Below, piece by piece: positions 12,266 through 45,404 of a stretch of DNA of 64,000 nucleotides (the stretch's first letter is position 1; each line of letters begins with the position of its first letter). The notes beneath the pieces are model-generated. The model worked only from the letters and a program-made list of their open reading frames with translations, was not told where the DNA came from and did no database searches. The translations under genes and the position numbers were made by a program. Source of the DNA: Euglena gracilis (taxonomy: Eukaryota); NCBI GenBank assembly GCA_039621445.1, contig CP154954.1:17762589-17826588 (forward strand). Direction: 5' to 3'.

Positions 12266-12271
12266 GCAGTG

Positions 12272-14773: not shown

Positions 14774-15611
14774 CTATGGCACAGAGGGGCATTTCCTGGG
14801 AGTCGGTGGTCTGATCTCCCGAACGTAATCTCCTTCAGGAGATTCCACTATCTCCAGTATTGGAGGTTCAAAATTTACAAGTTGCCTTTCAGGCTCATCG
14901 ACATCAAAATCGGGATATTCCCATTTTTGTGTAAAACCCATCGGGTAATCGTACTCCAAGCCTGTTGGCTTCTCGATGAAGAAAATTCTGGAGATTATCC
15001 CAGAAGAAAAGTGGCAACATTGCCGGCCAGATCCAAAAATTTAGGCGGGGGTGGTTGCATTGAACCTGTGGGGGTATCCCCGGATAAACGGCAGGATCTG
15101 CCTTGGTGTGCCAATCTGCGACTCGCGCTCGGATGGTGAATGGCCTTAAAACTTCTCTTACCCAATCGGTAAATTCCATTTTGTAGGCCTCAGGGGGGTA
15201 CTCAGGCAACAAAAATGTAAAATTTGGTCGGTTCGGCAGGCTTTGTGCCGAAAAAAGTGGGTATATCACCCTGTCCCAATCGGAATATTGAAAAATGTAT
15301 GGCACTTTGGCCTTGCCTGCTGACTCGACTGCGAGTCTGGCAAGCTGCGCTGTCAAGATGAAAATTTTTGGCGATTCCGCCTGTACGATAGCTGTGTACA
15401 GCTTTAAATTTCTTGAACTGGTAGAAATTGATTTGGGACTTATAGTCCTGCTTGAATTTGACCAGATGGTCTTCATTTTCTGGTATGACTCTGGTCATAC
15501 CGCCAGTGGCAGGTAACCAGAATTCTGCCTGTAGGCAGTTGATGCAACGGACAGGTATGTCCTTATCTTAAACGTTTTCCGTCCGGCGGAAATTGTCCAT
15601 ATTGGACCATG
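14774..15611 (-). pseudogene. C-terminal part of element A accessory ORF (downstream of nested element B)
   Basis: Removing B joins ...VCGDCLLT to WSNMDNFRRTENV*DKDIPVRCINC in frame with ORF 15202..15498. It continues by frameshifts into 14904..15476 and 14774..14959. Confidence 0.65.
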
Positions 15612-16251
15612 AGCTTCCCAGGGGGGGGTCCCGGTCTCGCTGGGGTTCCGGCAGGGTGGGTCCCGGGTCACGGATCCGGCGAGGGGGGGTGCGCGGGTGG
15701 CTCAGCCCCCACGGAGGCCCTGGGAAGCTCCGTGGGTGCTTGGAATGGGTTGGGATCCATTTTTTAGTATTCCCGGCGGCGGAGTGGAGGGGGGTGCCTC
15801 CTGCGATGCCTCTGGGGGTCTGCGGAGCCGCTTAGGTGGGCCCTCGCAGGGGGGTAAATTGAGGGGGGACAGAGGGGGGGCGGAAAAGCCTGGGTGCTAG
15901 GGGTTTTCAGGGGGTGCTTACCACCATTATAGCCACTTAGCCCATCCAAATCCAGAAAGTACCTTTGAAATTGCCTTGGGGCGCTCCTGGTAGGCCAATT
16001 CCTTGAGGTTTTCTTTGATCTCCTTGAAGGTATTTTCTCCTTTGGCAGTTTCCTTTGGTTTCTTTGAATTCTTTGAATTTGATTAAATTGAACAATTGAA
16101 CTTGAACAATTGAATTCCACTGCACAAATCAGATTGAATGCATGGAAACAAGGGAGCCTGCTGAAGGCAAATGCAGAAAGGGGGTGGTCAGGTAGTAGCG
16201 GAGGGTTCCGCTACTTTGTGTGCGCATGCGCTCAGGCCGCCGCCGCCCACA
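15612..16251 (-). repeat. 3' LTR of element B
   Basis: Direct repeat of 28575-29214 with scattered substitutions; PPT at 16252-16261. Confidence 0.93.
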
Positions 16252-19200
16252 CTCCCCTTCCTACCGAGGCGCCGGCCTCGCCTGCCTTTGGCTTACCCCG
16301 GCGGCGGGGGGCGGGAGCGGTGCGCACCAGGCATCGAGTGCACTATGTACAAAAAAAAAGGGAAAGGAACGTTATAACTGAGGGATGCAAGAATGGGGCC
16401 GTTCTGAAGGAACTTCGGCCTGGGGGTCGGCTTTGGCTCCGCCGTCCCTCCACAGAGCCCCGGGCGCGGAGCGCTGTGTGGCTTCCCGCCGCAGCGGTAG
16501 AACCGGCTGCGGGCGGGGCTCTGTGGGCTCGGGTTGGGTGTGCGACCGACCGCCCACTCCCTGTTCGGAAGCGCCGGCAGCCTGGTGGGTGAGGATGTCG
16601 TCCTCCGGGTTGACTTGCAGGCTGCGGCCAGGGAGTGGGTAAGGCATGTGCGCTCCCCGGCGGGCCTGGGGGGCGTGCTTGGGCTCGCCCTTGGCCGGGG
16701 GGGGGCGTGCCTCGCTCTGGGGCTGGCTGGTGCACGCTTGGGTCTGCCGGCTGGGGGGGGGGGTACCCTGCCCCTGGCTGGCTGGTGCGCGCTCGTGGCG
16801 CCTGGTGTGTGCATGCTCTGCGGGTGGCGTGCCTCCTCTTGCCCCCCGCTGTTGCCTGGCGCCCCTTCACACCTACGCCGGGGTGCCGTGGCCTTCCTTG
16901 AGGCCGGGGTCAGGGGGTTCGGTGGTCCAGGAAAGGAAAGAGTGAGACAGGGAAAAGGTGCGGTCCAGGGTCAACCCTCACCACAAGGTCAACCACAGCC
17001 TCCTGTGCTGCTCGCCGAACCACATTGCCACCGGCTGCGCTGCACTGTTGAATCCACGAGAAATCTGACGATGGGCACCAGGATGCAGATAAAACAATAC
17101 GGTAACGATGCAGATTGAACAAAACGGTGGTACTGCCCAAACCCCCTTACTCACCCCAGGTTGGCAGCAGGCTTTTCCGCTTTCCCCCCCCCCGCCCCCC
17201 TCAGGCTTGCGTAGCCGGGGCAAACGGGCGGCGGCCGGCTGGGTCCGGTCCGCCAGGTCGCACCGTGGGCCGGCTGGGCCTTTAGGGCCGGTCCCTCCGG
17301 TGGCGGGCCCCCTACCCGCCTGGGATGCGAGGGACGGGTCACTGGGAAGCCTGGGTACGAACCGTCAGACCTGGGTGAGGCAGGCTCGGGCTCGGTGCCA
17401 CACGGGCACGCACGGCTGCGTTGGGTCGCATGGTAACGTGCATGGGGTGGGACGTGCCATGGGGGGCACGTGTTCGGGCGGTGCTGCGTGGTGACTGGTC
17501 GTTGTGCTGCGGTGCGGTGCGGTGGGAGACGGGTCGGTGGGTCGGAGGCTGAGGTGAGGAGAACTGCGGGGCTGCGGGATTGGGGTGGCACTAGGGTACG
17601 GAGCTGATGTATGAGTTGTGGTGAGAGGTTGGGGAAGCTGGAAGCTGAGGGTGCTGTTGGAGGTTGGAGCTATGTTGAGGTTGCCGCTTCTGCCGTTGAC
17701 TAGGCCAGGTGGACCCGACCGGGCGCCTATGGTGGGCCTCTCTTTTGGCCTGCGTGGGCTTGGGCGTTTTTGGGGCTCTCCCCTTCCTGGCTTGCTGTTC
17801 CCTCGGCTGGTGTCGGTCTCTCCCGTTTCTCGTTGGGTGCTGTGGTGGCTCTTCGCCATTTTCTCTTGTGCTGGTGGGGTGTTTTTGTCTCTGCGGTTTT
17901 GCTGTCTCTCCTCTTGCTGGTGGCCCCGTCGCTGGGGTTCTGGGGGCTTCTGCCCCTCACAGCTGCTGGTTCGCCTCCTTCTCCTCCCATGTCCACTCAG
18001 TGGGGGGCTCTTCCCACTCAAGTGGCCACTTCTTGTCTTGCCTCGGTCCTCCTTCTACTGCTGACAGCCACACCCTGGACACCTCTGTTGGGTGTTTGGC
18101 CAGATGGGCCATGACATCCTCCTTCAGGTTCTTCTTCTGGAAGTAATCAACGATGGGCTGACTGTAGCTGTGGAAGAAATGGTGCAGTGGTTCCCAGGTG
18201 AGTTCGGTGGAACCTTCCCACTGCACCTTGAACTCCAACTCTCCTCCTGGCGTTCTTCGGTGGGTCACCACTTTTTCGACGTTCCACTCATCGATCCCGG
18301 TTGGAGGATCTGACCGGGCGTGCTTGAAGTGGAATAGCTTCACCGGTGATCCCAGCTCTTCATCGCCCTCTGTGTACGCCTTCAGCTGGCATCGGTGTGC
18401 TTCTTGCATCCTTCCTTCCTGCAGCTCCACCACGTAGCCGTGCTCACTCCTCCTCTCCATCACGCGGCATGGGCCCAGCCAGTAGCTCTCCAGCTTCTCT
18501 CCTGGCCTGCCCCTTGGCCGCAGGTAGCACGCCTTGCTGCCCACTTGCAGTGGTGTCAACTCCTTGCGTCGCTTGTTCAACTGCTCGGTCTTTTTTTGAT
18601 GCAACTGGTTCACGGTGTCTGCGACTTTCTTGTCCACCAGCTTCTGCCGCTCGAAGAAGCTCACTGCATCTTCGGCCTTGGTGGGTGGCTCGTAGGGGAC
18701 ACCAGCATACGGCCGGTGCCTTCCATAGAGCACTTCGTATGGCGATAGCCCGCCTTGGTCCTTCTTTGTCGTTGAGGCGTTGGACAGCGATGGGGAGTGC
18801 TTCCACCCACGGAATTCCTTTCTCTTCGTGGATGTGCCGCAGCTGCTTCTGCGGCTGTGCTCCCATCTGCTCTGCTCTGCCGTTGGCGGGGTGGTGGTGT
18901 GCTTGGGAGTAGGCGTGCTGCACGCCTTGCAGGGCACACATCGTTCGCCACCACGCTCCTGCGAAGTGGGGCCCCCTGTCCGAGGTGATCACACTTGGGA
19001 TCCCATGGGGCGACCACCACTTGCGGTACATCGCCTTGGCGACCTTGGCTGCCGTCAACCCCCTCGTGTGGTGTGCCGTGGCCACCGCCCAGCCGCTGTG
19101 TCTGTCGACGCAGCCCGCGACGACATTGAACAGCTTGCCCTCGAACTCCACCTCGGGCATCACAAACAGGTCGATGCAGACACTGGTCATGATGTCGGGC

Positions 19201-22200
19201 GGCACCGGTGTCGGTGTCACCTTCAGGTGCAGCGGCTAATGGGGGTGTTCCACTGCTTGGCAGTAGCTGCAGATTTTCTGCATCCTCTCTGCCAGCTTCT
19301 TTGCCTCCTCCTCGTCGGCGAACTGGAAGAAACGGTGAGCCTCCTTCATGAGCATCTCGCCTGCCCAATGGCCCGTTTGGGCATGCTGTGCTCTGAGGAC
19401 CTTGCCCCCCAGGCCCGTTGGCACGCACCAGACCCCATCCTTCAGGAGCCTCTTGTGTTAAACCCGGTAGCCCTTGGGCCACGGGTCTCCGATCGTGGTG
19501 TCATGCCACACGGTTTGTCATCTGGGGCACTTCTCGTAGTGCGGTCCCCAGTCCATGGTGTAGATGTCGATGTCCTCCTCGGCGTCTGCGGGGTCGGTGA
19601 TGGGATGATCAGGGGCAGATGTGGTTGGGGAGGGTGTTGGAATGTGTGGTGATGATGAGGATGGTGAGGGTGCTGGGATGCTGGATGACGGGGGTTGCGG
19701 CTGCACGATAGAGGTTTCGGGATGTTGATGGGGTGATGAGGTTGCTGGGTCGGCGGTTGATGTTGTGGCATCCTTTTCCTTGGGTGTTTCTGCTGTGGGT
19801 GCTGTGATTTCCACCACGTCATCCTCGTCCTCCACTGAGTCTTTGGCTGATTTGCTGCTGGTCTGTGGGACTGCTGGCTTTTCGTTTTTCTTTGGCATGC
19901 TGCTGGCTTGTCTGGCGGGTCTGGTGGGTCTTGCTGTGTCTTGCTGTGCTGGGCTTGGCGTCTCCATGTCGGTGGACCCCTTGGCTGTTGGTGCTGGCTG
20001 GTTCTTTTTCATCTGTGCTCGGGTGGTCACTGCCACTTCGGTGTTCTCGGTGGTTTTGTGCTTGAGCCGTATGATGCACACTTGCTTTTCTTCGGTGGCT
20101 GTGTCGATTGGGTGAGTGGCCTTTGGACACGATCTCTCCTCTTCCTTCTCCTTCTGGATTTGTTTTTGCATTTCTTTCGTGTCTTGATCGGTGCCATGCC
20201 AGGTGATGTCCTTGAAGCCTTGGCTGGCGGGATATGCCCATCTTGAGAGCGCATCTCCGATGGTGTTTGCTTGGCCTGGCACATGGATGACTTCCAGCCG
20301 GAAGTTGTTGAGCTTTGCATGCCACCTTGCTCGGCGGCCTTGTGGGCCGACTCCTGCGACATGCTCTTTGTACCACCCTTGTAGGCTCTTGTGGTCTGTC
20401 AGCACCAGCACCTCGTTGTCCAGAATGTACGGCGCCCACTTGTCCAGGGCGGAGACGATTGCATATGTCTCCTTGTCCCTGGTGTCCCACTTCTGCCGTT
20501 GGCCATCGGTGAGCTTGCGGCTCATGAAAGCCACGGGGATGGAGGCACCTGGCTTGATGTCCGCGAGGGACGGGAGTCCTTCCACCAGTGGTAACTGCTC
20601 CAGCGCCGCACCCACCGCATAGTCCGATGCATCTGTCCGAAGGACAAACGGCTTGGTCGGGTCCATGTGGTACAGCGCGAGGTCTGCCACGAGTGCCTGC
20701 TTCAGGCGCTCAAATGCGTTCTCTTCCTCGTTGGTCCATGTCACCGGGTGTTTGCTGCCTGCTTTGGCGAGCTCTCGGGGCAGCTTCAGCTTTTCCTGCA
20801 GCGGTGCCGCATATTCGGCGAACATTCGCACGTATCCGCTGTAATAATTGCACAACCCCAGAAATGCCTGGAGGTTGGAAACGTTTTTGGGCAGCTCCCA
20901 CTTCTGGACAGCTGCCAGTTTTCCTGGGGCTGGCGACCTTCTTCCTCCTCCCAGCACATGGCCGACAAACTCCACTCGGCGCATGAACAGCTTGACCTTC
21001 TTGGGGTCTGAGAACCACTTGTCGCACTCGAGGGCTGCCAGCGTCTCCCGGACATCTGCGGCATGGGCCTTCAGGAAGTCTTCTTCCGATTGGCCGACTT
21101 CTCTTTTGGTGCAGATGATGATGTCATCAAAGTACGGCCTTGTGCCTTTGCAGTCCGGCACACGTCGCATCGATGTCCCGTTGCAGCAGTGCTGGGCCCA
21201 CATTGATCCCTTGTGGGACCACGGTCCACTGCCACAGGCCGCCCGGCATTTGGATGTTGGTGATTGGCCGGGACTCGGCGTCAAGGGCGACTTGATGGAA
21301 GGCATCCCTGAGGTCCACTGTGCTGAACAGCTCACATCTTGCTTGCCCGGCCACGATATCCTCGGTGAGGGGCAGCGGGTAGCTGTCCGGCTGCAGCTGC
21401 TTGTTGGTGAGCGCATAATCGCACACCAGTCTCCACTTCCCGCTTTTCTTTTTTATTGGGAAGGCGGCTGCCCTCCATGGACCCCTCCCGGGTTCCAGCT
21501 TGCCGTCCTTCCGGCACTCTGCCTCCATTTCCCTCAGGGCATCATGCCTTTCTCCTCTCAGGTGGATCACTCTGCCCACCACTGGCACTGCACCTGACTT
21601 CAGCCTGAGCACGGCCTTGCCATGCGTCCCTCTTGCTGGGGGATTTGGCCACACTCTTTCCCGGAAGACGCGTCCTGCGTATTCATCCAGGATTTCTTGC
21701 CGGAGCTTGGATGCCAGTGGATCTGGATGCTCGTCGTCTGACTGCACCACGCCTCTGATTTCCACCTGCTCGCCCTGCACTTGGAGGACGTGCCTTGCTG
21801 CTTCCTGGAGTGCCTCGTTGTTGGAGATCTCCTCATCCGACGCACCTTCATCCTCCTCGGCTTCATGGACCTCTCCGGGGATGCACATCCGCATCTTCTT
21901 CACGAATGCCAGCATTTGCTCCTCCACATCTTCTTCTTCTTCCCACAGACACTCTTCTTCCTCTTGATGTCGTGTTGCCGTTGATGACAGGGGTTGCTGG
22001 AGGAGATGTTGGGTTGAGGATGCTGGGTGTGGTTGCGGCTCTTGCTGGGTGACCACTGTTGCTGTCGATCTTCCTTGTCCTTGGACGGTGCTGTTCTTCT
22101 GCGGCCACAGCACCCACCGTGGCGGATCATGCAGCTGGAGTGCATCTCTCCATGGCTGCACATCGAGGCGATTGACCTTCAACCACGGATATCCGAGGAT

Positions 22201-22639
22201 GAGGTCGCAGCCGATGTCCCCGTCGTGTGCGGTGACGGTGCTGCTCCACTGACTGCCCACTGGCACGCCCTCTTCGGTTCTCGCCTCGAAGGAGAGAGTG
22301 ATGGTGGCCACATTCTTTCCTCCGTTGAGCTCTTCGCCACTCACTGTCTTGAGCAGCAGCGGCTTGCTGGACTGCGTGAAGCAGGCTTCTGGAAGCAGGT
22401 CCTTCCGGCAGAGAGACGTCTGGGCTCCGGTGTCGATGAGCGCTTTTGCTTGGCGGCACTCACCATTGGCTTCCACGGTCACTTCCAGCAGCAGCTGGCA
22501 TCCGCCTCCTCTCCTTTGCATCCTGCCCACTCGAAAGCGGGCCGGCTTCAAATGCCATGGCTTGATGGTCACCTCTTGCACTTGGCTGTTGCGTACTGCT
22601 CCTTCTGCTTCGGTCGCTGCTTGTGGTCCTGTGCCTTGG

Positions 22640-23245
22640 CACAGGTACTCCACCACGCCGCTTGGGATTCTGTATGCCTCCTCTCGTGACACCCTGTGGG
22701 GGCACCTGCCTCCCAGCTGGAACCGGTGGCGCCGTCTTCCTTTGTCCCCTTGCACCGAGCTTTTGCATCGGCCATCGCACAACACGTTGGTGAGATCCCT
22801 GGCCATCTCCTTCGGTAACCAGAACCGGGTGGGCTTCCGGTAGCCGAAGTCTTCGAACATGCAGTAGTCGAGGTCCACAAAGGCCAGGTCTCGGACTACT
22901 CGCCTCCTGCGGAGCAGCCCGTGCCGGGGAATCTCGATCCACCACTTCGCCGGAGCGAGGTACTGGATGATCTCTTTTGTCTTCCTCACCACCGCATCTG
23001 CTTCCCTCAACCGCCTCGGCCTTGTCGTCATTGCCGACGAGTACTCGGTGCATGGTGGGGATGCTGCCACCAGATCGAAGTCACCAGGGGGATACTGCTG
23101 CCAGTACTCCCATCGCCTGATGTCTGCCACCACATCGGGATGCCACCGGGAGTCCCAGTCGACACTCACGACATGGTAGCCCATTGCCTCGAGGGCCCGG
23201 CGGACACTGCCCGTCTCGGAGAACAGGTCCAGTGCCCAGAGCTCA
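22640..23245 (-). CDS. C5-cytosine DNA methyltransferase domain within pol of element B
   Basis: Motif I LDLFSETGS, II VSVD, III ADI, IV FDLVAASPPCTEYS, VI WWIEIP (ENP-like), VII LDYCMF, VIII YRKPTRFW, and C-terminal YRIP. Confidence 0.88.
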
Positions 23246-23399
23246 CGTCCGCGGCTCTGCTGGTGCTTCTCTTCTTTTGCTTCAGGCGTCACTGAGCCTG
23301 GAGGCACGGATGTGGATGTGGCTTGGGCGATGTTGCTGGATGTTGGATGCGGATGCGGTGTTTCTTGTTGTAGATGTTGTCTTGATCCTTCTTGAGGCG

Positions 23400-24560
23400 G
23401 TTGTGGTTGATGCTGGTAATCGCTTGGTGGTTGGTGTTGTTGGTGGGGATGCGGCGATGTAGAAGTCGGTTCCGGTGGAGGTTGTTGTTGAGGTAGTTGC
23501 TGAGACGAAGTTGAAGGTTCTTGTGGGAGAGGTAGCGGGGTGTTTCCTTGTGATGATGATGGTGGTTCGAGTGGCGGCTGTAGCGATTGTGGATGTTGCG
23601 GAGGAGATAACGGTTCCTGTGGGCGATGAAGTTGGTGTGGGTGTCGCTGAGATGACGGAGACGGTTCTCGTGGTGGCAGCCGCGAAGGTGGGTGTCGCGA
23701 AGAAGATGAAGGTTCTGGTGGACGATAATGTTGGGGTGGATGTCGCTGCAAAGATGAAGACAGTTCTCGTGGCAGTGGCTGCGATGGCGGATGTCGTGAT
23801 GTGGATGAAGGTTCTCGTGGGAGTTGTGGTTGGTGTGGGTGTGGCTTAGATGATGTAGTCGGTTCTCGTGGCGGCAGCGGCGATGGTGGATGCTGTGGAT
23901 AAGATGAAGGTTCTGGTGGATGTTGACGTCGGAGTAGATGTCGCTCTGATGATGATGCGGGTTTGTGGGGTAGCTGCTGTCGAGGTAGTTGTTGCGGTGA
24001 AGATGAAGGTTCTGGTGGGAGTGGTCGTTGGGGAGGATGCAGCTTGGATGATGGTGTCGGTTCTAGTGGCGGCGGCTGCAGTCGGTGTCGGGGTTCGGAT
24101 GTCCGTTCTGGTGGGAGATGTCGTTGGAGGAGATGTTGGGGTGGGGATGACGGTTCTTGTGGATGATGCCGCTCGTGGGGTGGCTGCTGCGGGTTACATG
24201 TCCGTTCTGGTGGGGGATGTCGATGGTGGAGATGCTGGGGTGGAGATGACGGTGCTTGTGGCTGATGATGCTCGTGGGGTGGCTGCAGCGGGTTAGAGGA
24301 GCGTTTTGGTGGGAGCTGTTGATGGTGGGGATGTTTGGGTGGAGATGACGGTTCTTGTGGCGGATGATGCTCGTGGGGTGGCTGCCGGGTTTCTGGTCGC
24401 TTGTTGTCGGGCTGTTGCATGGCTGTCAGGCTTCTTGGGTGCTCTTCTTGTGGTGGATGCCGGTCGGTGTCACGCAGTGGATGTTGCTTTCTTTGGGGTA
24501 GGTGTTGCTTTTCTTGTTGTGGATGCCGGTTGGTGTCGCGGGGAGGGTGTTGTGTGGTAT
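23400..24560. repeat. Degenerate ~57-bp minisatellite encoding a P/Q/S/H-rich linker upstream of the MTase
   Basis: Recurring GATGA(A/C)GGTTCT(C/G/T)GTGG units, translating as (P/R)EPSSS.QHP repeats. Confidence 0.8.
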
Positions 24561-24929
24561 ATGTTGACCCTTGAGGTGGTTGTCGCGATGAGGTTGTTGT
24601 TTCCTGCTTACTTCCTTTTCCCTTGGAGTGGTTGTTGTTCTTTGTCGTTGATCTTTGCCATTTCCTTGGCATAGATCTCTCCCTTTTTCTTCCTTCCTTC
24701 CCTTTGTGCCTTGATCCCTTTCGGGTTGTGTCATCGGAGGTGATTGTCTTGGCTTGCGGTTTCTTTTCTTTTTCTCCACCACCTGCCATCCTTCCTCCTC
24801 TCAATGCCTGGACAGGGTGGTGGAGCACACCTGCACGGTTCTCACCTCGTGCACTTCCTCTTGCCCGTCTCCGGCTCGGGGTTTTGACTGCCTGCCCAGG
24901 CCTCCTCCCCTGGGGCCTGGGCGGCCCCT

Positions 24930-27900
24930 TCACTCCTCACACTCCTCCACTGCGGCGACACTCCTCCCTCGGCCGCCGTCCTTTTCACCTTTGCCTTTTC
25001 CATCTCCCTTTCCTCTGCTCTTGCCTTTCTCATCGCCTTTGCGTTTGCCACCCTTGTCTTGTCCACCACCTTTGCCATCTCCTCCCTTTGACCATTGTGG
25101 GTTGCCTTTTCCTTTGCCTTTGGCATCCCATGAGTTGTTCCACGACGCTCCGCCTTGGTACGGGGCATTCTGCCACTGTCCCGATGATGACCACTCTGGT
25201 TGTCGATCTCCTCCCTTCACCGCCGGTGGCGGTGAAGGTGCACTTTGGGTGGGCTGTGGTCCGGGTTGCACCGTGCTTGTCGGTTGCTCCTCCTTCTTCT
25301 CAGACACCTTTGGAGGTGTCGGGGGCCTCTTATCTTGCCGTTTGTTTCCCTTGCCCACTTGCCGGACAACTTCTTCCTCTTCTTCTTCTGCACCATCCCA
25401 CTCTGCATCCACTTCCCGGTGCCACCGCGGCTGTGGCCGATGGTCTTGCCTTTGGGGGCCGGAGCTTTGCTGCGGCTCGGGCGCGTTGGCGATCCGCTCC
25501 TCCGTTCGGAGCCAACGAGTCATCAGCTCGTTGATTTCTTTCGGCCCCAACTCCGCATTGTCCGGGGAGACCTTGACAACGCTCCCGCCTTGGAGCCGCT
25601 GCCGGTCATAGAGGATTTTGATGGCATGCCGATGCTCTTCCCCTTGCGGCGTCACCTTCACTCGCTTTCCGAACCGTCGCACGGCAAGTGGTCTCAGCCC
25701 GGTCTCCGCCAGCACCATGTTCTCCACCTCCTCTGTGGCCACATCGATTGGCAGCCCATCGAGCACCAAGGTGCCCCTCTCTGTCCTTTTGTCCTCCTCC
25801 GTCGCCAGCTTTCTTCGCCACGGATCCCTTGGGATCGCATTCATCAACAGGCGACTCAGTTCTGCATCACTGACATCGCCAAGTTGCCCAGCCAGGGTCA
25901 TCATCTGTGCGTAGAGCTCACGCCACGACTTCTCCGTTGGCTTGCCCGCGTGCGCCATCTTCAGCCGGTGGAGCTTGCGGCGGAGGACCTCCTTGTCTTC
26001 CGCACCGAACTCCAGGTCGAGGCGCGCCCAGTACTCCTCGTACCCGAGGTCCGGATTGGCTTCCAGCTCCTGGACCACCAGGAGAGCCCCGGCCTCGTCG
26101 AGTGCACTTCGCAGCAACGCCAATCGCTGTGCGTCGGTCATTGCTGGCATCAGCCCTTCCGTTTCTCGTAGATACGGAATCCACTTTCTTCTCCACATTG
26201 GCCAATCTTCTGCGATCCCGCTGAACCTTCCGGGATGTCTGCCGCTGATGGACTCCAGGAGTTGTGGGGGTAGGAGTTGGAGTTGTGGACTGACGGTGTG
26301 TGCTTGCACTGGGGCGATGGTCACTTCCACCCCCCGCACCGCCGTTCTGGTTGTGCTCCTGGGTGGCTGTGTCACTTGCGTCATTGGCATCACTGCTTGT
26401 ACTGGGATTGATGTAACTGCTTCACTTTGCACCATTGATCGCGTGCTCTTTCTTGCCAACCTGAACGCCGGTCGCACCGCAACCGAAGATTGTTGTCGTG
26501 CTTGTATTTCTGGGTACGGTTGGGACGGAAATGTGTGGACCTCTGCACGTTGACGGACTTCTTCACGGGGGATGTGTGGTTCCTGGATGGGCGTTGTTGT
26601 GCTGAGCTGTAGCCGTGCGACTTGTCTCGCCAGATCTTGCACTTCTCGCTCCATCTGTTCACTGCTGCTCATATTGGGGCGTGATTGTTGCCGGATTAGC
26701 TGAATGTCCCTCTGTATTTCCCTGAGCTGTGTCTTTGTCTCCTTGATGGCCTTGGAGAACGCTCCCTCCCAATGGAGCACTCTCTCCCGCAATTGTTGGA
26801 TGCCGTCCTCCATCTCTTCCGCTGATTGCAGTGGTTGTTGTGGGAGTTGAAGTCGTTTGATCTCCTCGTGCATCTTGTTCTCCACCCGCTCCATGGCCCT
26901 TGCCAGTGCTTCGTTCGCCATCTCGACCTTCTTGCTCAGCCGGAGAAGGTCTCTGTCCTTCTCATCTTTGGCTCGGGCCATGGAGGTCTCCAGGGCTTGT
27001 ACCCTGCCCCCAAGGAGATGGAAGTCGTGCACCTGGATCTCGAGCTTCCGGACGTACTCCGTCGTCTCGCGCTTGAACTGCTTGTTGTTCTGCTCGAGGG
27101 CCTGCACCTTGAAGATCAGATCCTGGATGAGAGTGTCGGATGTGGTCGGTTGTTGGAGTTGCGTTGTCTGTTGTTTTTGCTTCATCTCCTGGATCTCCTT
27201 TGCCATCACCGCCACCTGAGTCTGTTGTGCTTGTTTCATTGCCTCCACCTCCTTCTTGATCGCCGTCACTTCCTCCACCATTGCCCGTTTCAGTCGGTTT
27301 TTCGATTGTTCGATTTCTTGGATCCGCACCGTCATTCTGTTCATTGCCACCTCCATCTCCGGGTTCTGGATCGGTTGTTGTGGTTTTGGTGATCCTTTTG
27401 CTGCTTGCTGCTCGTGTTCGCGCCGCATCATTTCCACTAGGGACCGGATGTCGCTGTTTCGCGTCACTGTTTCCATCTTGATCTGCTCCTTCACCATTTG
27501 GACCTCGCTTTCAACGACGGTGATTCGCGCATCGTGTTTGCTGATTGCGTGTATTGTCGCGGTGTCGATGGCTGCACCATTGGAGGATGATGATGATGCC
27601 GCCTCGGTCTTGATCTGCTCCTTCAACCCTTGGACATCTCGTTCCACCATCGCGAAGCGAACCTCGTGCTGTGTGATCGCAGTTTGCGCAGCACTCGCGG
27701 CTTCGTGCAGCGTTGTGGTCTCCGCCGCGCATCGCATTGAAACGTCATACGCACGTGTTGCTTGCTCGCGGACGAGATTGACTGCGGTGTCGCACGCGGT
27801 GATCAGTCGTTTGACTACCTCGATGTCTTGTTGTTGTTGCGCCGCCATCGCTTCGATGTCGTTGAACACGTCGTCCTGCTTGTAGTCACCCTCGGTAGGC

Positions 27901-28250
27901 CACCATCCTCCTTCAGACCCCCAAGGTTCCCACCGTTGTTCCTCCCACTGCTCCTGCTCCTCTGTCTCCTCTGCTCCCCCTTCCTCTGGGGAGAGTGTCG
28001 GGACCTTCTGGGGCCGGGGAGTGGCCCCAGAGGAAAACGGGGTCCGCAGCCCCATGTCTCGGCTCCCTTGGGGGGGCTGCGGTCCATCGGTTGGGTCCGG
28101 GACGTCGGATGTCGGGGAGGAGTAGGATGGGGGATGAGGGCTGAAGGATGGGGGATGTGTGGTGTATGAGAAGGAGGGTGGGGGACGGATGGAGAAGATG
28201 GAGGGATGGTTTGGGTCGGAGTCGGTGGGGGAGAAGGGTGGAGGCAGCAC
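24930..28250 (-). CDS. Gag of element B (coiled coil, capsid-like region, RRM-like domain, KG-rich tail; no CCHC knuckle)
   Basis: 1106-aa intact ORF after the PBS. PGRFSG..EDWPMWRRKW is a capsid-type motif; long heptad-rich region; GKGKG C-terminus. Confidence 0.82.
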   Translation of the reverse strand: MLPPPFSPTDSDPNHPSIFSIRPPPSFSYTTHPPSFSPHPPSYSSPTSDVPDPTDGPQPPQGSRDMGLRTPFSSGATPRPQKVPTLSPEEGGAEETEEQEQWEEQRWEPWGSEGGWWPTEGDYKQDDVFNDIEAMAAQQQQDIEVVKRLITACDTAVNLVREQATRAYDVSMRCAAETTTLHEAASAAQTAITQHEVRFAMVERDVQGLKEQIKTEAASSSSSNGAAIDTATIHAISKHDARITVVESEVQMVKEQIKMETVTRNSDIRSLVEMMRREHEQQAAKGSPKPQQPIQNPEMEVAMNRMTVRIQEIEQSKNRLKRAMVEEVTAIKKEVEAMKQAQQTQVAVMAKEIQEMKQKQQTTQLQQPTTSDTLIQDLIFKVQALEQNNKQFKRETTEYVRKLEIQVHDFHLLGGRVQALETSMARAKDEKDRDLLRLSKKVEMANEALARAMERVENKMHEEIKRLQLPQQPLQSAEEMEDGIQQLRERVLHWEGAFSKAIKETKTQLREIQRDIQLIRQQSRPNMSSSEQMEREVQDLARQVARLQLSTTTPIQEPHIPREEVRQRAEVHTFPSQPYPEIQARQQSSVAVRPAFRLARKSTRSMVQSEAVTSIPVQAVMPMTQVTQPPRSTTRTAVRGVEVTIAPVQAHTVSPQLQLLPPQLLESISGRHPGRFSGIAEDWPMWRRKWIPYLRETEGLMPAMTDAQRLALLRSALDEAGALLVVQELEANPDLGYEEYWARLDLEFGAEDKEVLRRKLHRLKMAHAGKPTEKSWRELYAQMMTLAGQLGDVSDAELSRLLMNAIPRDPWRRKLATEEDKRTERGTLVLDGLPIDVATEEVENMVLAETGLRPLAVRRFGKRVKVTPQGEEHRHAIKILYDRQRLQGGSVVKVSPDNAELGPKEINELMTRWLRTEERIANAPEPQQSSGPQRQDHRPQPRWHREVDAEWDGAEEEEEEVVRQVGKGNKRQDKRPPTPPKVSEKKEEQPTSTVQPGPQPTQSAPSPPPAVKGGDRQPEWSSSGQWQNAPYQGGASWNNSWDAKGKGKGNPQWSKGGDGKGGGQDKGGKRKGDEKGKSRGKGDGKGKGEKDGGRGRSVAAVEECEE

Positions 28251-28560
28251 TGATGGGGCTTCATAGAGCGATGGGAACGGGGGGAAAAGGGGATTTCCGG
28301 TTGACTTTCCTTTCCGTGGGGTGGGGGTTCGATCCCGAGGGCTATCGAGATCAAAATCATTTGTACTTGGGGACAGCAGGGCTAGGGCTGTGCATTGGGC
28401 ATCCCCGTGGGGCTACCACGGAGATGTGATGGGGGGCCCCCGTAGGGGATTGCGGGCATCGCTGGGGTGGGGTCGCGGAGTGCTGGACCTCGGCCGGTGA
28501 TGTGAAAGTTCACCTCAGAGTGGGCCGCGAGGAATGGGTTGTTGTGTGGGGTAGGGTCGT

Positions 28561-28575
28561 AAGCCTCTGCTACCA
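28561..28575 (-). promoter_or_regulatory. Primer binding site (initiator tRNA-Met type) of element B
   Basis: TGGTAGCAGAGG directly after the 5' LTR; an identical copy is at 50121-50135. Confidence 0.85.
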
Positions 28576-29214
28576 GTTTCCCAGGGGGGGTCCCGGTCTC
28601 GCTGGGGTTCCGGCAGGGTGGGTCCCGGGTCACGGATCCGGCGAGGGGGGGTGCGCGGGTGGGATCAGCTCCCACGGAGGCCCTGGGAAGCTCCGTGGGT
28701 GCTTGGAATGGGTTGGGATCCATTTTTTAGTATTCCCGGCGGCGGAGTGGAGGGGGGTGCCTCCTGCGATGCCTCTGGGGGTCTGCGGAGCCGCTTAGGT
28801 GGGCCCTCGCATGGGGGGAAATTGAGGGGGGACAGAGGGGGGGCGGAAAAGCCTGGGTGCTAGGGGTTTTCAGGGGGTGCTTCCCACCCTTATAGCCACT
28901 TAGCCCAGCCAAATCCAGAAAGTACCTTTGAAATTGCCTTGGGGCGCTCCTGGTAGGCCAATTCCTTGAGGTTTTCTTTGATCTCCTTGAAGGTATTTTC
29001 TCCTTTGGCAGTTTCCTTTGGTTTCTTTGAATTCTTTGATTTTGACTAAATTGAACAATTGAACTTGAACAATTGAATTCCAATGCACAAATCAGATTGA
29101 ATCCATTGAAACAAGGGAGCCTGCGGAAGGCAAATGCAGAAAGGGGGTGGTCAGGTAGTAGCGGAGGGTTCCGATACTTTGTGTGCGCATGCGCTCAGGC
29201 CGCCGCCGCCCACA
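28575..29214 (-). repeat. 5' LTR of element B
   Basis: Direct repeat of 15612-16251; begins TGTGGGCGG on the sense strand. Confidence 0.93.
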
Positions 29215-32200
29215 CATGTCAGTAGGCAATCGCCACAAACCAATGATGCGCAATTGTGCACATAAGCATCATGTTGGAAGCTTATGCTGTCCGGGTTGCG
29301 TGTGCAGATATGCACTGCGGGCATATCGTTTCGTAGTCTATGGCATGCTGTACATAACCACAATAGTGGACCATTTTCCTGGAAATCCAGGACGAAATTT
29401 CCTCCAAAATATTGGGCTAATACCCTTGGAGATTTCGCATTCCAAAAACGCCAAGTGTGGCTGGTTGTGAAAATACCGGGTTGATCCCGGTGGAACAAGG
29501 GCTTGATCCACTTGTTCAGCCAGGGGTCACTGCTTTTTTGCGATCATATTGATCCTAGCCTGGCGAGTGTTGAGGAGGTCCACTCTGGACAACACGTCCT
29601 CAGTCCAAAATGGCTCATCGGCCTCGTGAGGGACATTAGACCGAATCGGTCTGATTGTGGGTTTGCGCTTAGCGCCTTCAGAGGTTGCAGCCACATAGCT
29701 GGCCATGGGTATAGTAGGCCTATGGCCAGTGCCAGAGCCGTCTCCACCAGAAGGTGGCGGCTCATCATCCCGTCGCTGTTCAGCGGGCTTGCAGCCTTCG
29801 GCTGAAGGTTTAGCCTTAGGCTTCTTATGTTTGCCATATCGGCGTTCTTCCCGAGGGTCTGCCGGAGGCAGTGGTCTTTCCGCCGTTGGCGGTTTCGGGG
29901 CTGCCGGTTTGGCAGGAGGTGCCGATAATTTGGCAGGAGGTGGTTGCATATCTGCTGTTGGCGGTGTTGGTGCAGCTGGTTTGGCTGCTGGGATATCTAA
30001 CTCCATTGGAGTTGTGATCGCAGCCTGTACGGCTGTTGTGCAGCTATTTGCAGCCGTAACCCTTTGGGTTTCGGCAGGGGAAGCGGCTGGTGAGCCTCGA
30101 GGGGTCAGTACTGCTGATACTGCGGACATTGCCGCGGTCAGACCCTATAGCACACCACCTAAAACACCTGTAGGTATTGTTGGTGATGCGACAGGTTCTG
30201 TCGGGGTTGGTGCCGTTGGCACTGCGGGTAAGGCTAGGGGTGGTACCGGAGGTACCGGTGGCCGTTCGGCATCGAATGTAGGAGATTCAGTCTCTGAGCT
30301 GACATCACCTTCAGGTGGAAGGGGTGTCCTAGAGCCCATTGGGACTGGTGGAAGGGCTGATTTCTGCGTTTCATCAGCACATATGTCTTCCAGCCGTTCC
30401 ATGCGGTCTTCACCGCCCTCACCATCATTCTCCCTACTGTCCTCCACCGTTTCTGGTGAAGCGGCAGTGGCTGCTGGTTGTTCCGCTATAGCGGTAAGCA
30501 CAGGTGTTGGTTGCGCAATCGCGCTGGTGATGGGAGTCGCTATTGCGGGCTGGGGGGAAGAGATAGCCACAGAAGATTGACTCTCCTGGAATCCCTTAGG
30601 GATAAATGGTTCCGCAGTAGCCGACAGGCTTGAACCGATATAGTGCCTACCACGCCCGAAAACGGGTGGAGGTGTTTCACCAGGAATTCCCGGGGGAACG
30701 GGTGTTGCCGATTGCGGCTGAGCTGTGACTGATGTTGCCAGTTGCGGCTGGGTTGAGGATTCCGATTGCGGAACTTCCGCAGCCGGTTGCGGCTGTGGCC
30801 GTGGCACATGTCTTTTCCGTAATCGGAAAAGATCCCATGGTTTCCTTTCGTCTTCAACCATTCTGTGGTTGAAGCGCAGGAGGGGTGGGGCCATGCCCAG
30901 CTCGTTCCGTCTGCCGCCTTGGAAAAACGGCTGGAACAGCGCCTTATCGAGCGTATCGCCGAATCGGCGTTTGACATAATCGTCCATGCTTTCCTTCTCG
31001 AACCGGGGCCAGATGGGGACATACATAGTCCGGGGGAATTTCCCTATCGGGATTGAGATAATAATATATCTCCATGATCTGGCAGGCCCACGCCCTGAAC
31101 CAGAATTGCTGCAAATACAGCAGGAGTTGACGGTGGTTGTGTCGCCCGTTCGAGCTTTGGTGAACATCCTTTGGATTTCTGCAACGGTGCAGCAGCATGA
31201 CGCGCTTTGGCGCTGCCTGCGGGACATTGGCCTGTTGGCCTTCCTCGTCCTGGCCTTCGGCCTGTGGTTGAGTACTGCGTACTCCGAATCCCCAGAAGTC
31301 CACTGCAAATTTTTCGTGACAGTGGGAACATCTGACGATGTACGTCTGGGGGAAGCGTAGGTCAATATCGACCACTTCGAAGTGATAGGCATATTTCCAG
31401 TGGTAGAAGACTTGCAGATTGCTGCAGAACATGTTTTCTGCCAATTTGGCAATATTGTCAGGCAGTGGGTAGATCTCCCACTCCAGGCCTTTTGGGCCCA
31501 CACTGCGAATGCAGTCGAATAACTGCCGTAGCAGATCTTTACCTGTATTGTATCGGTCTTCCCGACCACAACCCAGGTAAGGATATCCACAGGAGTTCAA
31601 GAATCTGCCGAAACTTTGGGTGGGGTATCCCGCCCAGAACCAAACATGCCAGAATCCCGGCAGATCGTCCAGTATCGGACCGAGGATGACGTTGCCCTCA
31701 TAGGCATACAGAGTTCCATCATGGTGGAACTCACGGTTACGCTCCAGATAGAGCTGTCGGGTCACGGTCACAACGGGAGATGCGACCTAGATTGGGAGAG
31801 AAAGTTCGTTTTGGAACTTTCGCATGGCCTCGAATGCGAGTTCATGGTTGCTTTTGATGTGCTCGAATAGAGCTTCCATGTCGGCCTCATAGACGTTCCG
31901 ATATTGGCCTTTCTGGCCTTTAGCTGGGGGTCGTTTGGGAGCACTTTCGGCTTTACCCCTGCCCGATCGGGCTTCCCTTCGGGCAATCTCTTCTCTGGCT
32001 TGTTTCCAAGCATGAGGATTGAGATTGGCTGCAAAACGAGGGCCTATAAAGATCGGATTTATATCGCTTGTGCGGCCAATCAATTCCTGTGGGGCATAAG
32101 CCATTTTGGCGGCTGGGTAAGCTGCAGGTTGATCCTGCATGTCCGCCAATAGCGGTGGGTTATTGTCAGGGAGGGGTTCGCCTCTAGGCGGATCGATGTA

Positions 32201-44518: not shown

Positions 44519-44784
44519 CTGAGCCCTAATTCAATCAGGCAGATCCTAATTCACAGAAAAAATGATGGTGCTGTCTGTAGGTGGCTGTCAACATACACTG
44601 TTCACTCCGTTGTCTGGGATTACTTTCCTGAGTTTGGATTTGTTTGTTTTTGTCTGCGGCGCAGGTTTATTTCAAGTTTGGTCATTGCTGCTGGAAGTGG
44701 GATTTTGGGAAAGAGATTTCAGTGAAAGGGATGTCAAGTAAAGGAAGGGGCTCCAGAAGTCAGGTCCGTGGTAAGGGGACCTCG

Positions 44785-45120
44785 GACTTTCACGGTGATC
44801 TGGCTGTGCCACCTCTTCACTCCTCCACTCCTCTCTCCTTCACTCCTCGCGTTGAACACCAGGAGGACGTCCGCCTCGTTGCTGCCGCCCGCCAGCAGGT
44901 CGCCGTTCACGGTCCGTAGCAGCAGTGGTCGCTCGCTACGGCGGAAACATCCGCTCGGGAACAAGTCCTGACGGATCAGCGATGTCTGCGCCCCCGTGTC
45001 GATGAGGGCCTTCGCCTTCTCCTCCCGGCCGTCGATCTCGATGACCACATCCAGCATCAGCTGGTAGCTGCCGCCCCGCCTCTCCGTGCGGCCAACCGGG
45101 AAGGGCCAGCTGGGGCGGTA
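44785..45120 (-). pseudogene. Aspartic protease of element D (truncated)
   Basis: QLMLDVVIE..KALIDTGAQTSL..PLLLRTVNG, homologous to the B protease. Confidence 0.85.
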
Positions 45121-45404
45121 CTGCCACGGCAAGACGGTGACCTTGTGGACCTTCCGCGAGGGGTGGGCTCGTCGGCGGCGGTGGTGACGGACTCGGTGGC
45201 TGCATCGTTGGGCGGCTCGGCGGGGGTGCAGGATGCTTGGCGGGTGCACGATGGTCGTCGTTGGCGCGGAGCTCGGGACAGCGCCGCTGCTGGCGGGGAA
45301 GCGCCGTCCGGCTTGGTGGCGTGAGGGCGGACGAGGGTGCGGGTGACGGCGACGGAGGTATCACGCTGGGTGGCACGGCTGCTTGGTGGGTTGGTGGGGT
45401 GCGC

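What the first reader, a model, noticed from the sequence alone, without database searches (positions are those of the whole stretch)
15612..29214. Ty3/Gypsy chromodomain retrotransposon encoding its own C5-cytosine DNA methyltransferase between Gag and protease
Seen: a compact ~200-aa domain (22640-23245) with C5-MTase motifs in order (DLFSxTG, SPPC, E(N/I)P, DYC, YRKPTR). It is in frame with protease and RT, inside an element with intact LTRs, TSD, PBS and PPT. Established: canonical Gypsy Pol lacks such a domain. Retrotransposon-borne DNMTs have been reported in dinoflagellates and a charophyte alga, so the concept is not wholly new. Inference: the short architecture resembles viral/prokaryotic-type MTases more than DNMT1/3, so this may be an independent capture. 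A protease-released MTase packaged in the particle could methylate the cDNA before chromodomain-guided integration. This copy has G>E in motif I and N>I in motif VI and may be inactive.
Basis: partly seen in the sequence, partly recalled or inferred. Interest (0 to 1): 0.88.

Follow-up and report, generated by a model that had tools for sequence, protein, structure and literature searches.

The report
Gypsy retrotransposon carrying compact cytosine methyltransferase
A decayed copy of a jumping gene of the Gypsy type carries, in front of its protease, a very small DNA cytosine methyltransferase of a kind otherwise seen in viruses. The idea is already known, but this enzyme type and its position in the element seem not to have been described.

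Summary
An LTR element (15612-29214) has 640-bp LTRs 97.7% alike and a CATG target duplication. Empty-site contigs in three public DNA runs support those ends. It encodes Gag-like ORF, repeat linker, a ~204-aa C5-cytosine methyltransferase (22633-23244), protease, RT/RNase H, integrase and chromodomain.

Pfam PF00145 alone is marginal (E 0.0016). The fold is decisive: pLDDT 93.6, and Z about 15 to DNMT3A/B and M.HhaI over about 200 residues.

The domain is not a one-off. A second copy, 59% identical and in the same order, lies at 45420-45998. An intact metagenome relative (L007) has methylase-protease-RT-RNase H in one ORF. At least 28 database relatives carry the domain next to protease, RT or Dam. 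All 28 keep the catalytic Cys, motif-I Gly and motif-VI Glu.

Its nearest structural relative is a 218-aa giant-virus methylase (TM 0.81).

Both window copies are dead. Copy 1 has G>E, N>I, two frameshifts and three stops. Copy 2 has lost the catalytic Cys.

Retrotransposon DNMTs are known (2018), and DAM+DNMT "EpiLTRs" were described in 2026. This is a new variant, not a new kind. Methylation of the element's cDNA is inferred and untested.

The parts
15608..15611 (.). target-site duplication CATG (left)
   Evidence: empty-site joint with 4 shared letters
15612..16251 (-). 3' LTR (in the element's own sense), 640 bp, begins TGTGGG
   Evidence: 97.7% identical to the other LTR
16252..16265 (-). 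polypurine tract GGTAGGAAGGGGAG abutting the 3' LTR
   Evidence: read from the sequence
16266..17956 (-). GC-rich (66.5% over 16252-17956) stretch between the chromodomain stop and the PPT; no recognised coding
17957..18751 (-). integrase C-part with chromodomain (about 18134-18286)
   Evidence: Pfam Chromo E 6.4e-5, 23.2 bits, under the 25.1-bit cut-off; tblastn to P0010 and P0217
18756..19565 (-). integrase N-part and core, with three in-frame stops (19518-20, 19458-60, 19236-38); separated from the C-part by a frameshift near 18753
19521..21452 (-). RT C-part and RNase H (ORF P0003), in a different frame from the RT N-part (frameshift near 21141)
   Evidence: Pfam RT_RNaseH_2 E 2.2e-24
21130..21456 (-). 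RT N-part, same frame as methylase and protease
   Evidence: Pfam RVT_1 E 3.1e-16
22153..22521 (-). retropepsin-type protease, DTGAQ at 22420-22434
   Evidence: RVP seen in relative L007
22633..23244 (-). compact C5-cytosine methyltransferase domain (about 204 aa) with E at the motif-I Gly and I at the motif-VI Asn
23453..24385 (-). 99-nt (33-aa) tandem repeats coding a Pro/His/Gln-rich linker upstream of the methylase
24930..28412 (-). Gag-like ORF (coiled-coil, then Gly/Lys-rich tail; no Pfam match); Pol lies in the -1 frame with a 7-nt overlap
   Evidence: 47% identity to the Gag-like part of copy 2
28564..28575 (-). primer-binding site TGGTAGCAGAGG (likeness to the initiator tRNA-Met 3' end is recalled, not tested)
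28575..29214 (-). 5' LTR
29215..29218 (.). target-site duplication CATG (right)
44746..48046 (-). second, diverged and truncated element of the same build: Gag-like 47067-48046, methylase 45420-45998 (59% aa identity; catalytic Cys replaced by Ser, motif-I Gly by Arg, premature stop), protease 44746-45153

Best explanation
SHOWN. The locus is a decayed copy of a multi-copy Ty3/Gypsy chromovirus on the minus strand. Its Pol polyprotein begins with a compact (about 200 aa) C5-cytosine methyltransferase, followed by protease, RT, RNase H, integrase and chromodomain. The methylase has the complete catalytic core of C5 DNA methyltransferases (motifs I, IV, VI, VIII, X). In place of a normal target-recognition domain it has a stretch of about 45 residues with invariant Cys/Cys/His. 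The domain is an inherited, selected part of this retroelement lineage. It belongs to a large family whose stand-alone members sit on viral contigs and in a giant virus. INFERRED. The domain came from a DNA virus or phage-like source and was later moved around inside Pol and combined with DAM in sister lineages. In active copies it is made as part of Gag-Pol, enters the particle, and methylates the newly made cDNA, or the copy at or just after chromodomain-guided integration. In a genome that methylates CpG by default, the new copy would then look like host DNA. I rate that mechanism at about 0.4; the identity and lineage statements at about 0.9. SHOWN. Both copies in the window are dead. Copy 1 has substitutions at two conserved catalytic-core positions and five breaks in Pol. 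Copy 2 has lost the catalytic cysteine.
For: Fold: the AF2 model has pLDDT 93.6 and pTM 0.89. All of the listed top Foldseek PDB matches are C5-methyltransferases, E about 4e-7. VIA-align gives Z 15.0 to DNMT3A (197 aligned, rmsd 4.5), 14.5 to M.HhaI (195 aligned, rmsd 3.3) and 13.7 to DNMT1 and M.HaeIII, covering model residues 4-215.
Sequence: PF00145 matches 42 of 47 and 100 of 150 family members. The family profile hits DNMT1 chains at E 1.7e-4.
Lineage: a second copy in the window has the same Gag-like, methylase, protease order. L007 has methylase, RVP, RVT_1 and RNase H in one open 1196-aa frame and is 70% identical in the methylase. P0010, P0215 and P0217 are methylase-PR-RT-RH-INT-chromo polyproteins. 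A retropepsin motif follows the methylase in 23 of 163 proteins scanned and precedes it in 9; most of the rest are short fragments.
Selection: among 28 relatives with protease, RT or Dam context, Cys75, Gly20, Glu114, Cys138, Cys166, Cys170 and His183 are each kept in 28 of 28. Window versus L007 gives methylase dN 0.214, protease dN 0.273, RT dN about 0.09-0.11, with dS saturated (NG86 ratio about 0.08).
Origin: the best viral structure match is the Tetraselmis virus 1 putative cytosine methylase, 218 aa, TM 0.81, 30% identity, E 3.5e-18. The nearest Atlas clusters are ~215-aa viral methylases. Stand-alone relatives lie on six IMG/VR contigs. In a 101-row tree, all 28 retroelement-context rows and both window copies fall within a 63-row set split off at SH-aLRT 96 from the mostly stand-alone rows.
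Multi-copy: 16788 contigs of run X1 lay on the element at 90% likeness or more.
Decay. P0006, 96% identical, keeps Asn where the window has Ile.
Host CpG depletion: CpG observed/expected is 0.45 in the left flank and 0.70 in the element.
Against: No activity, target or timing was tested. In the only published functional test that I read (PMC5890265, section 10), the Gypsy-borne and LINE-borne DNMTs gave no methylation in yeast; the authors called that result inconclusive. This copy scores below Pfam's cut-off (18.4 versus 22 bits). No RNA reads covered the methylase region: 0 depth over 22410-23397, and 62 reads in all on the 14.8-kb stretch, from about 5% of run X22. The Gag-like and Pol frames overlap by only 7 nt with no slippery heptamer, so how Pol is translated is unclear. 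The tree is a quick search with SH-aLRT only, is unrooted, and uses labels from regular expressions. 29 rows on the retroelement side have no known context and 4 look stand-alone. No reference sequences of DNMT1/3/4/5/6 or of other transposon DNMTs were in the tree. dS is saturated, so the ratio is only 'well below 1'.
Confidence: 0.7

Rival explanations
1. It is not a separate capture. The element is a DAM-less member of the LTR lineages already described in 2026 as DAM-LTRs and EpiLTRs (DAM + DNMT + chromodomain, Euglena gracilis and Cymbomonas tetramitiformis), and its methylase is the same module. This concerns novelty and does not conflict with the mechanism above.
For: Relatives P0043, P0057 and P0218 carry Dam and this same compact methylase in one protein. 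By motif search, five tree rows are DAM-linked, and they are scattered among the sister clades of the window's clade. P0223, with a Dam domain, is 64-75% identical to this element's RT/RNase H. A decayed Dam-like stretch lies between protease and RT of another Gypsy element in the same window. The preprint reports DAM-LTRs in only 13 species, none of them animals or streptophytes.
Against: No Dam match inside 15612-29214. The preprint places its DNMT at the 3' end of pol (Cymbomonas) and gives no order for Euglena. It describes the module as sister to DNMT4. I could not compare sequences, and its supplements were not seen.
Confidence: 0.35
2. The domain methylates RNA (the element's genomic RNA or the primer tRNA), like DNMT2, rather than DNA.
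For: It has no normal target-recognition domain. The family profile also touches tRNA-Asp methyltransferase chains (9hgm E 0.015, 1g55 E 0.023). De Mendoza et al. raise RNA methylation as a possibility for the LINE-borne DNMT (PMC5890265, Discussion).
Against: DNA methyltransferases score better by sequence (DNMT1, E 1.7e-4). DNA methyltransferases fill the listed top structural ranks. The stand-alone relatives sit on DNA-virus contigs, where DNA is the expected substrate.
Confidence: 0.12
3. The enzyme acts on host chromatin around the insertion, or genome-wide, and not on the cDNA in the particle. For example, it may mark or silence the new copy to limit harm to the host.
For: The chromodomain in the same polyprotein points to chromatin-directed action. 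De Mendoza et al. discuss host-directed effects (PMC5890265, Discussion).
Against: Nothing in the sequence separates this from cDNA methylation. In the window's own clade the domain lies at the N-terminus of Pol, far from integrase and chromodomain.
Confidence: 0.2
4. The domain is a recent passenger of this copy alone, or a chance motif match, with no role in the element.
For: This copy's Pfam score is under the cut-off, and two core residues are changed.
Against: A second, diverged copy lies in the window. There is an intact relative, L007. All 28 relatives with retroelement context keep the catalytic residues. dN is like that of the protease. No separate duplication flanks the domain, and it is in frame on both sides.
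Confidence: 0.02

Closest known systems
KnitGypsy-Dnmt3 of Klebsormidium nitens (de Mendoza et al. 2018, PMC5890265; sections 6, 7, 9-11 read)
   Same: A Gypsy-type LTR retrotransposon with a C5-methyltransferase inside the Pol ORF. Key catalytic residues are conserved and the domain is under purifying selection.
   Different: That domain is reported as Dnmt3-derived, of host origin. Here the domain is about 200 aa, and its closest structure is a 218-aa giant-virus enzyme (TM 0.81, against 0.47-0.59 for DNMT3 chains). No sequence comparison was possible.
EpiLTRs / DAM-LTRs (bioRxiv 10.64898/2026.05.21.726589; abstract, section 7 and passages read, supplements not seen)
   Same: Chromovirus-like LTR elements carrying a DNMT. 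Relatives of this element carry DAM plus this same methylase. A Dam-like remnant sits in a neighbouring Gypsy element in the window.
   Different: This element has no DAM. Its methylase precedes the protease, whereas in Cymbomonas it is at the 3' end of pol. Their DNMT is described as sister to DNMT4. Whether the two modules are identical was not tested.
SymbioLINE-Dnmt and SymbioDIRS-Dnmt3 of Symbiodinium (PMC5890265)
   Same: Retrotransposon-encoded C5-methyltransferases under purifying selection. SymbioLINE-Dnmt is likewise an 'orphan' DNMT outside the eukaryotic families.
   Different: The element classes differ (LINE ORF1; DIRS with tyrosine recombinase). None of the 150 best family hits matched a LINE endonuclease family. 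A separate ORF1 would not show that, so kinship with SymbioLINE-Dnmt stays open.
Compact stand-alone viral C5-methyltransferases, e.g. Tetraselmis virus 1 A0A2P0VN45 (218 aa)
   Same: Same size and fold (TM 0.81, rmsd 2.4, 30% identity), and the same invariant residues, including Cys138/Cys166/Cys170/His183.
   Different: Those are free-standing genes of DNA viruses. Here the domain is fused into a retroelement polyprotein. In the tree, the retroelement-borne ones lie apart from most stand-alone ones (SH-aLRT 96).
Catalytic domains of DNMT3A/B and M.HhaI (solved structures)
   Same: The whole domain aligns from motif I to motif X (Z 14.5-15.0, 195-200 residues).
   Different: 14-17% identity. 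The large target-recognition domain of M.HhaI and the DNMT3 dimer/tetramer interface regions have no counterpart. The region between motifs VIII and X is about 45 residues.

Membership tests
C5-cytosine methyltransferase (Pfam PF00145 fold class) | Motif I, SAM-binding loop F-x-G-x-G | tested here: not met
   The window copy reads F-S-E-T-G. Gly is kept in 28 of 28 retroelement-context relatives and 36 of 36 stand-alone ones. The lineage meets the feature; this copy does not.
C5-cytosine methyltransferase (Pfam PF00145 fold class) | Motif IV, Pro-Cys with the catalytic cysteine | tested here: met
   SPPC at 23050-23061. Cys is kept in 28 of 28 relatives. Copy 2 has Ser.
C5-cytosine methyltransferase (Pfam PF00145 fold class) | Motif VI, E-N-V type | tested here: not met
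   Glu is kept but Asn is replaced by Ile (EIP). Relatives have Asn in 23 of 28 and Thr in 5 of 28, never Ile. The 96%-identical P0006 has Asn.
C5-cytosine methyltransferase (Pfam PF00145 fold class) | Motifs VIII and X in order after VI | tested here: met
   YRKPTR and AYRIP are aligned across the family. The structural alignment runs to the C-terminal helix of M.HhaI and DNMT3A. The motif numbering is recalled.
C5-cytosine methyltransferase (Pfam PF00145 fold class) | Score at or above Pfam's gathering cut-off | tested here: not met
   18.4 bits against a 22-bit cut-off, with only profile positions 4-77 matched. Relatives pass: P0013 27.2, P0057 29.1, P0010 25.3 bits.
C5-cytosine methyltransferase (Pfam PF00145 fold class) | Class-I methyltransferase fold as in solved C5-MTases | tested here: met
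   Z 13.3-15.0 to DNMT3A/B, M.HhaI, M.HaeIII, DNMT1 and DIM-2 over 190-207 residues.
C5-cytosine methyltransferase (Pfam PF00145 fold class) | Target-recognition domain between motifs VIII and IX | tested here: inconclusive
   Only about 45 residues lie there, with invariant Cys166, Cys170 and His183. Whether they bind zinc or read DNA was not tested.
C5-cytosine methyltransferase (Pfam PF00145 fold class) | Transfers methyl to C5 of cytosine in DNA | not testable with these tools
   No assay was possible. Methylation calls over the copies were not available.
Ty3/Gypsy chromovirus | LTRs, short target duplication, PBS and PPT | tested here: met
Ty3/Gypsy chromovirus | Pol order PR-RT-RNase H-INT with a C-terminal chromodomain | tested here: met
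   The chromodomain scores E 6.4e-5, slightly under the cut-off (23.2 versus 25.1 bits). Relatives P0010 and P0107 pass.
EpiLTR (DAM + DNMT + chromodomain LTR elements) | DAM domain in the same element | tested here: not met
   No Dam match by Pfam or by tblastn with five Dam-bearing relatives inside 15612-29214.
EpiLTR (DAM + DNMT + chromodomain LTR elements) | DNMT module of the clade described as sister to DNMT4 | not tested
   No EpiLTR or DNMT4 sequences were at hand. The preprint's supplements were not seen.
Dnmt3-derived transposon DNMTs (KnitGypsy-Dnmt3, SymbioDIRS-Dnmt3) | Branches within the eukaryotic Dnmt3 clade | not tested
   No Dnmt3 sequences were in my tree. By structure DNMT3 is tied with M.HhaI (Z 15.0 versus 14.5), while the viral 218-aa enzyme is much closer (TM 0.81).

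The most novel reading that the evidence does not exclude
A virus-derived, TRD-less 'mini' C5-methyltransferase was captured once by an ancestral Gypsy/chromovirus element. It has since been kept under selection, moved to at least three places in Pol (before the protease, between protease and RT, after RNase H) and joined with DAM in some lineages. This would give a widespread, mostly undescribed clade of self-methylating LTR retroelements in protists, separate from the Dnmt3-derived captures.
Probability: 0.4. Interest if true: 0.65.

Novelty: new variant of a known kind. Interest (0 to 1): 0.52.

Why it matters
Cytosine methylation is the classic host weapon against transposons, so elements that carry their own methylase challenge that picture. 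The known cases are Dnmt3-like domains in DIRS and Gypsy elements, an orphan DNMT in a LINE, and the DAM+DNMT EpiLTRs.

If this compact module is a further, virus-derived capture, then such acquisitions are more frequent and draw on more sources than reported. The enzyme is about 200 aa with no normal target-recognition domain, and it is conserved across many diverged elements. That makes it a handy minimal system for asking what a retroelement gains from methylating DNA.

The copy in this window is dead, so its value is as a pointer to the family, not as an active element.

Tried and rejected
- phmmer of the domain against PDB sequences found nothing at E<=10. Only the family profile reached DNMT1.
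- The whole genome is not held, so copy number, genome-wide dN/dS and host genes could not be studied.
- Host identification failed. There were no Rfam families, no tRNAs, and no dinoflagellate spliced-leader motif (recalled sequence; 0 matches at up to 3 mismatches). The three protein searches returned no organism names that help: the one name (Genlisea aurea, for P0057 on a 2.5-kb contig) may be contamination. Run organisms are coded.
- With P0004 alone, viral contigs gave no relative and metagenome contigs gave one (L007).
- The RNA run X22 gave 62 reads, mostly 90-95% alike and mostly over 15988-16975, and none over the methylase. That is no evidence of expression, and too thin to show silence.
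- YN00 dN/dS failed with a math error and NG86 dS was saturated or undefined, so no exact ratio is claimed.
- I looked for a -1 slippery site at the Gag/Pol junction and found none in the 7-nt overlap.
- Literature: four searches and passages of PMC5890265, PMC9998398, PMC12344493, PMC6338049 and the 2026 preprint. None describes a compact viral-type DNMT at the N-terminus of a Gypsy Pol. That is absence from those searches, not proof that it is unpublished.


Full report
1. WHAT IS THERE

The element lies on the minus strand. Stop-to-stop ORFs there are:
- 24930-28412: 1160 aa, Gag-like by position, coiled-coil then a Gly/Lys-rich tail, no Pfam match.
- 21127-24936: 1269 aa.
- 19518-21452: 644 aa.

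The 1269-aa frame holds, in order:
- a basic stretch;
- about 28 copies of a 33-aa Pro/His/Gln-rich repeat (99-nt period, 23453-24385);
- the methylase-like domain (residues 565-768, window 22633-23244);
- the retropepsin motif DTGAQ (22420-22434);
- the start of RT (RVT_1, E 3.1e-16).

2. THE ELEMENT'S ENDS

- The LTRs are 15612-16251 and 28575-29214, 640 bp each. 624 of 639 aligned bases are identical, with 2 gap columns. 12 of the 15 mismatches are transversions.
- CATG flanks both ends.
- TGGTAGCAGAGG follows the 5' LTR. Its likeness to the 3' end of initiator tRNA-Met is recalled, not tested.
- GGTAGGAAGGGGAG precedes the 3' LTR.
- Contigs of three public DNA runs join 15607 directly to 29215, with four letters shared by both sides (6, 1 and 2 contigs). 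This is the empty site and confirms the ends and the 4-bp duplication.
- The flanks are three to five times deeper than the element in those runs, so the element sits inside a more abundant repeat.
- 16788 contigs of run X1 lay on the stretch at 90% likeness or more, so the family is high-copy there.

3. THIS COPY IS BROKEN

- RT changes frame near 21141.
- The integrase region has three in-frame stops (19518, 19458, 19236) and a frame change near 18753.
- At the RT frame change, at the integrase frame change and at the stop at 19518, most or all contigs of the other runs differ from the window. Those three breaks are therefore private to this copy. The other two stops are not among the differences shown.
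- The Gag-like ORF and Pol overlap by 7 nt. Pol is in the -1 frame and there is no slippery heptamer. How Pol is reached is unclear.
- Between the chromodomain stop (17957) and the PPT lie 1.7 kb of 66.5% G+C with no recognised coding.

4. IS THE DOMAIN A C5-METHYLTRANSFERASE?

By Pfam alone the evidence is marginal. PF00145 scores E 0.0016 and 18.4 bits against a 22-bit cut-off, and only motifs I-IV are aligned. phmmer against PDB sequences found nothing.

The family settles it:
- phmmer against 1.84 billion cluster representatives gave 2469 hits at E<=0.001 and 127 at E<=1e-30.
- PF00145 matches 42 of 47 (E<=0.01) and 100 of 150 (E<=0.001) members.
- The family profile reaches DNMT1 chains at E 1.7e-4.
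- An AlphaFold model built on 47 sequences has pLDDT 93.6.
- Every listed top Foldseek PDB match is a C5-methyltransferase.
- VIA-align gives Z 15.0 to DNMT3A, 14.5 to M.HhaI, and 13.7 to DNMT1 and M.HaeIII, aligning 190-207 residues across model residues 4-215. These Z values are tied within about 1.

The domain is the full catalytic core with almost no target-recognition domain. About 45 residues lie between motifs VIII and X, carrying invariant Cys166, Cys170 and His183, with Cys138 also invariant. A zinc site is my inference.

5. IS IT PART OF THE ELEMENT OR A ONE-OFF?

It is part of the element.

(a) A second element in the window has the same order: Gag-like 47067-48046, methylase 45420-45998, protease 44746-45153. 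It is 59% identical in the methylase and 47-49% in the Gag-like and protease parts.

(b) L007, a 3.6-kb metagenome contig, has one open 1196-aa frame with DNA_methylase, RVP, RVT_1 and RNase H. It is 70% identical in the methylase and has Gly, Cys and Asn at the key places.

(c) P0010 (2513 aa), P0215 and P0217 are methylase-PR-RT-RH-INT-chromo polyproteins. P0212 and P0008 reach RT.

(d) Of 163 family proteins scanned with motif patterns, a retropepsin motif follows the methylase in 23 and precedes it in 9. Most of the others are short fragments.

(e) Other arrangements exist: PR-methylase-RT (P0329), RT-RH-methylase (P0300), and, with DAM, P0043, P0057 and P0218.

6. SELECTION

Among 28 relatives with protease, RT or Dam context:
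- the motif-I Gly, the catalytic Cys, the motif-VI Glu, Cys138, Cys166, Cys170 and His183 are each kept in 28 of 28;
- the motif-VI Asn is kept in 23 of 28, with Thr in the other 5.

The window's first copy has Glu for that Gly and Ile for that Asn. The second has Arg for the Gly, Ser for the catalytic Cys, and a premature stop. P0006, 96% identical to copy 1 over residues 82-221, has Asn, so the Ile is recent.

Between the window and L007, dN is 0.214 in the methylase, 0.273 in the protease region and 0.09-0.11 in RT/RNase H. dS is saturated (NG86 2.7-3.3 or undefined; YN00 failed). The ratio is well below 1 but not measurable.

7. WHERE DID IT COME FROM?

- The closest viral structure is the 218-aa putative cytosine methylase of Tetraselmis virus 1 (TM 0.81, rmsd 2.4, 30% identity, E 3.5e-18). 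Next is an unnamed 210-aa viral protein (TM 0.73). DNMT3 chains reach a query TM of 0.47-0.59.
- The nearest Atlas clusters are 213-219-aa methylases labelled viral.
- Stand-alone relatives of P0173 lie on six IMG/VR contigs. One of these carries a primase-helicase-like gene.
- I built a tree of 101 domain rows. Starting from 117 near-full rows, I dropped 17 near-duplicates of clusters and added the second window copy. All 28 context-bearing rows and both window copies fall in a 63-row set separated at SH-aLRT 96 from 36 mostly stand-alone rows. The window copies sit in a 5-row clade (98) with P0005, P0212 and P0008.
- This fits one capture followed by reshuffling.
- Cautions: the tree is a quick search, it is unrooted, it has no reference DNMT families, and 29 rows on the retroelement side have unknown context.

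8. WHAT IS KNOWN

- De Mendoza et al. 2018 (PMC5890265; sections 6, 7, 9-11 read) described SymbioLINE-Dnmt (an orphan DNMT in LINE ORF1), SymbioDIRS-Dnmt3 and KnitGypsy-Dnmt3. They showed CG methylation by the DIRS enzymes in yeast. The LINE and Gypsy enzymes gave no signal, which the authors called inconclusive.
- A 2025 survey (PMC12344493; passages read) speaks of lineage-specific 'orphan' DNMTs, some from transposons or giant viruses.
- A May 2026 preprint (10.64898/2026.05.21.726589; abstract, section 7 and passages read) describes DAM-LTRs and 'EpiLTRs' with DAM, DNMT and chromodomain in Euglena gracilis and Cymbomonas tetramitiformis. It places their DNMT as sister to DNMT4 and as distinct from the 2018 cases.
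- My relatives with DAM plus this methylase, the Dam-bearing P0223 at 64-75% RT identity, and a decayed Dam-like stretch in a neighbouring Gypsy element of this window make kinship with those elements a serious possibility.
- I could not test this for want of sequences. Supplements were closed.
- In four literature searches I found no description of a DAM-less chromovirus with a compact viral-type methylase ahead of the protease.

9. MECHANISM

Shown: the enzyme is encoded in the Pol frame upstream of the protease and is conserved like a working enzyme.

Inferred, at about 0.4: it is translated with Pol, packaged, perhaps cut free by the protease, and methylates the cDNA or the freshly integrated copy. 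In a host that methylates CpG broadly, the new copy would then resemble host DNA. CpG observed/expected is 0.45 in the left flank and 0.70 in the element.

Rivals are RNA methylation, action on host chromatin, and self-limitation. Nothing here separates them.

No transcripts of the methylase region were seen in about 5% of one RNA run.

10. VERDICT

The domain is an inherited part of a multi-copy chromovirus lineage, and the two copies in the window are dead. The concept is known, so this is a new variant. The compact enzyme type, its position and the size of its family are the interesting points.

Noticed in passing
window 34342-42815 (-): A third Gypsy element without the C5-methylase: coiled-coil Gag 41262-42815, zf-CCHC 39553-40734, protease 39125-39472, RT 36926-37468, RNase H 35956-36858, integrase/chromo about 34342-35519. 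Between protease and RT (37646-38059) it has a Dam-like stretch. That stretch has a stop and a degenerate catalytic motif.
   Followed up: partly
window 1953-6251 (-), esp. 3167-3730: A 1432-aa open frame with no Pfam match at E<=0.001. It holds a weak Dam-like segment (PF05869, E 3.1e-4, 20.9 bits, under the cut-off; also tblastn to Dam-bearing relatives).
   Followed up: partly
window 6824-12271: Three tandem copies of a unit of about 1814 bp, 98.6% alike (self-BLAST).
   Followed up: no
window 61951-63999 (+): Another retroelement Pol frame (RVT_1, E 9.5e-19) running off the end of the window. No methylase match.
   Followed up: no
window 15612-16251 vs 28575-29214: 12 of the 15 LTR mismatches are transversions. 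That is unusual for decay in a CpG-depleted genome. It may reflect sequencing or assembly error, or gene conversion with other copies.
   Followed up: no
proteins among the 150 best family hits: Three members pair the compact methylase with PHD fingers (PF00628, best E 4.3e-10). This may be a further, non-retroelement domain combination.
   Followed up: no
L004 (IMG/VR contig), 2-2467: The stand-alone compact methylase lies beside a primase-helicase-like gene (Herpes_ori_bp E 9.7e-21, PriCT_2). This suggests a small eukaryotic DNA virus or a polinton-like element rather than a phage.
   Followed up: partly
window 13507-13946 and 44077-44518: A 442-bp repeat, 95% alike, lies just downstream of the truncated second methylase-bearing element. 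It may mark the sequence that cut that element short.
   Followed up: no
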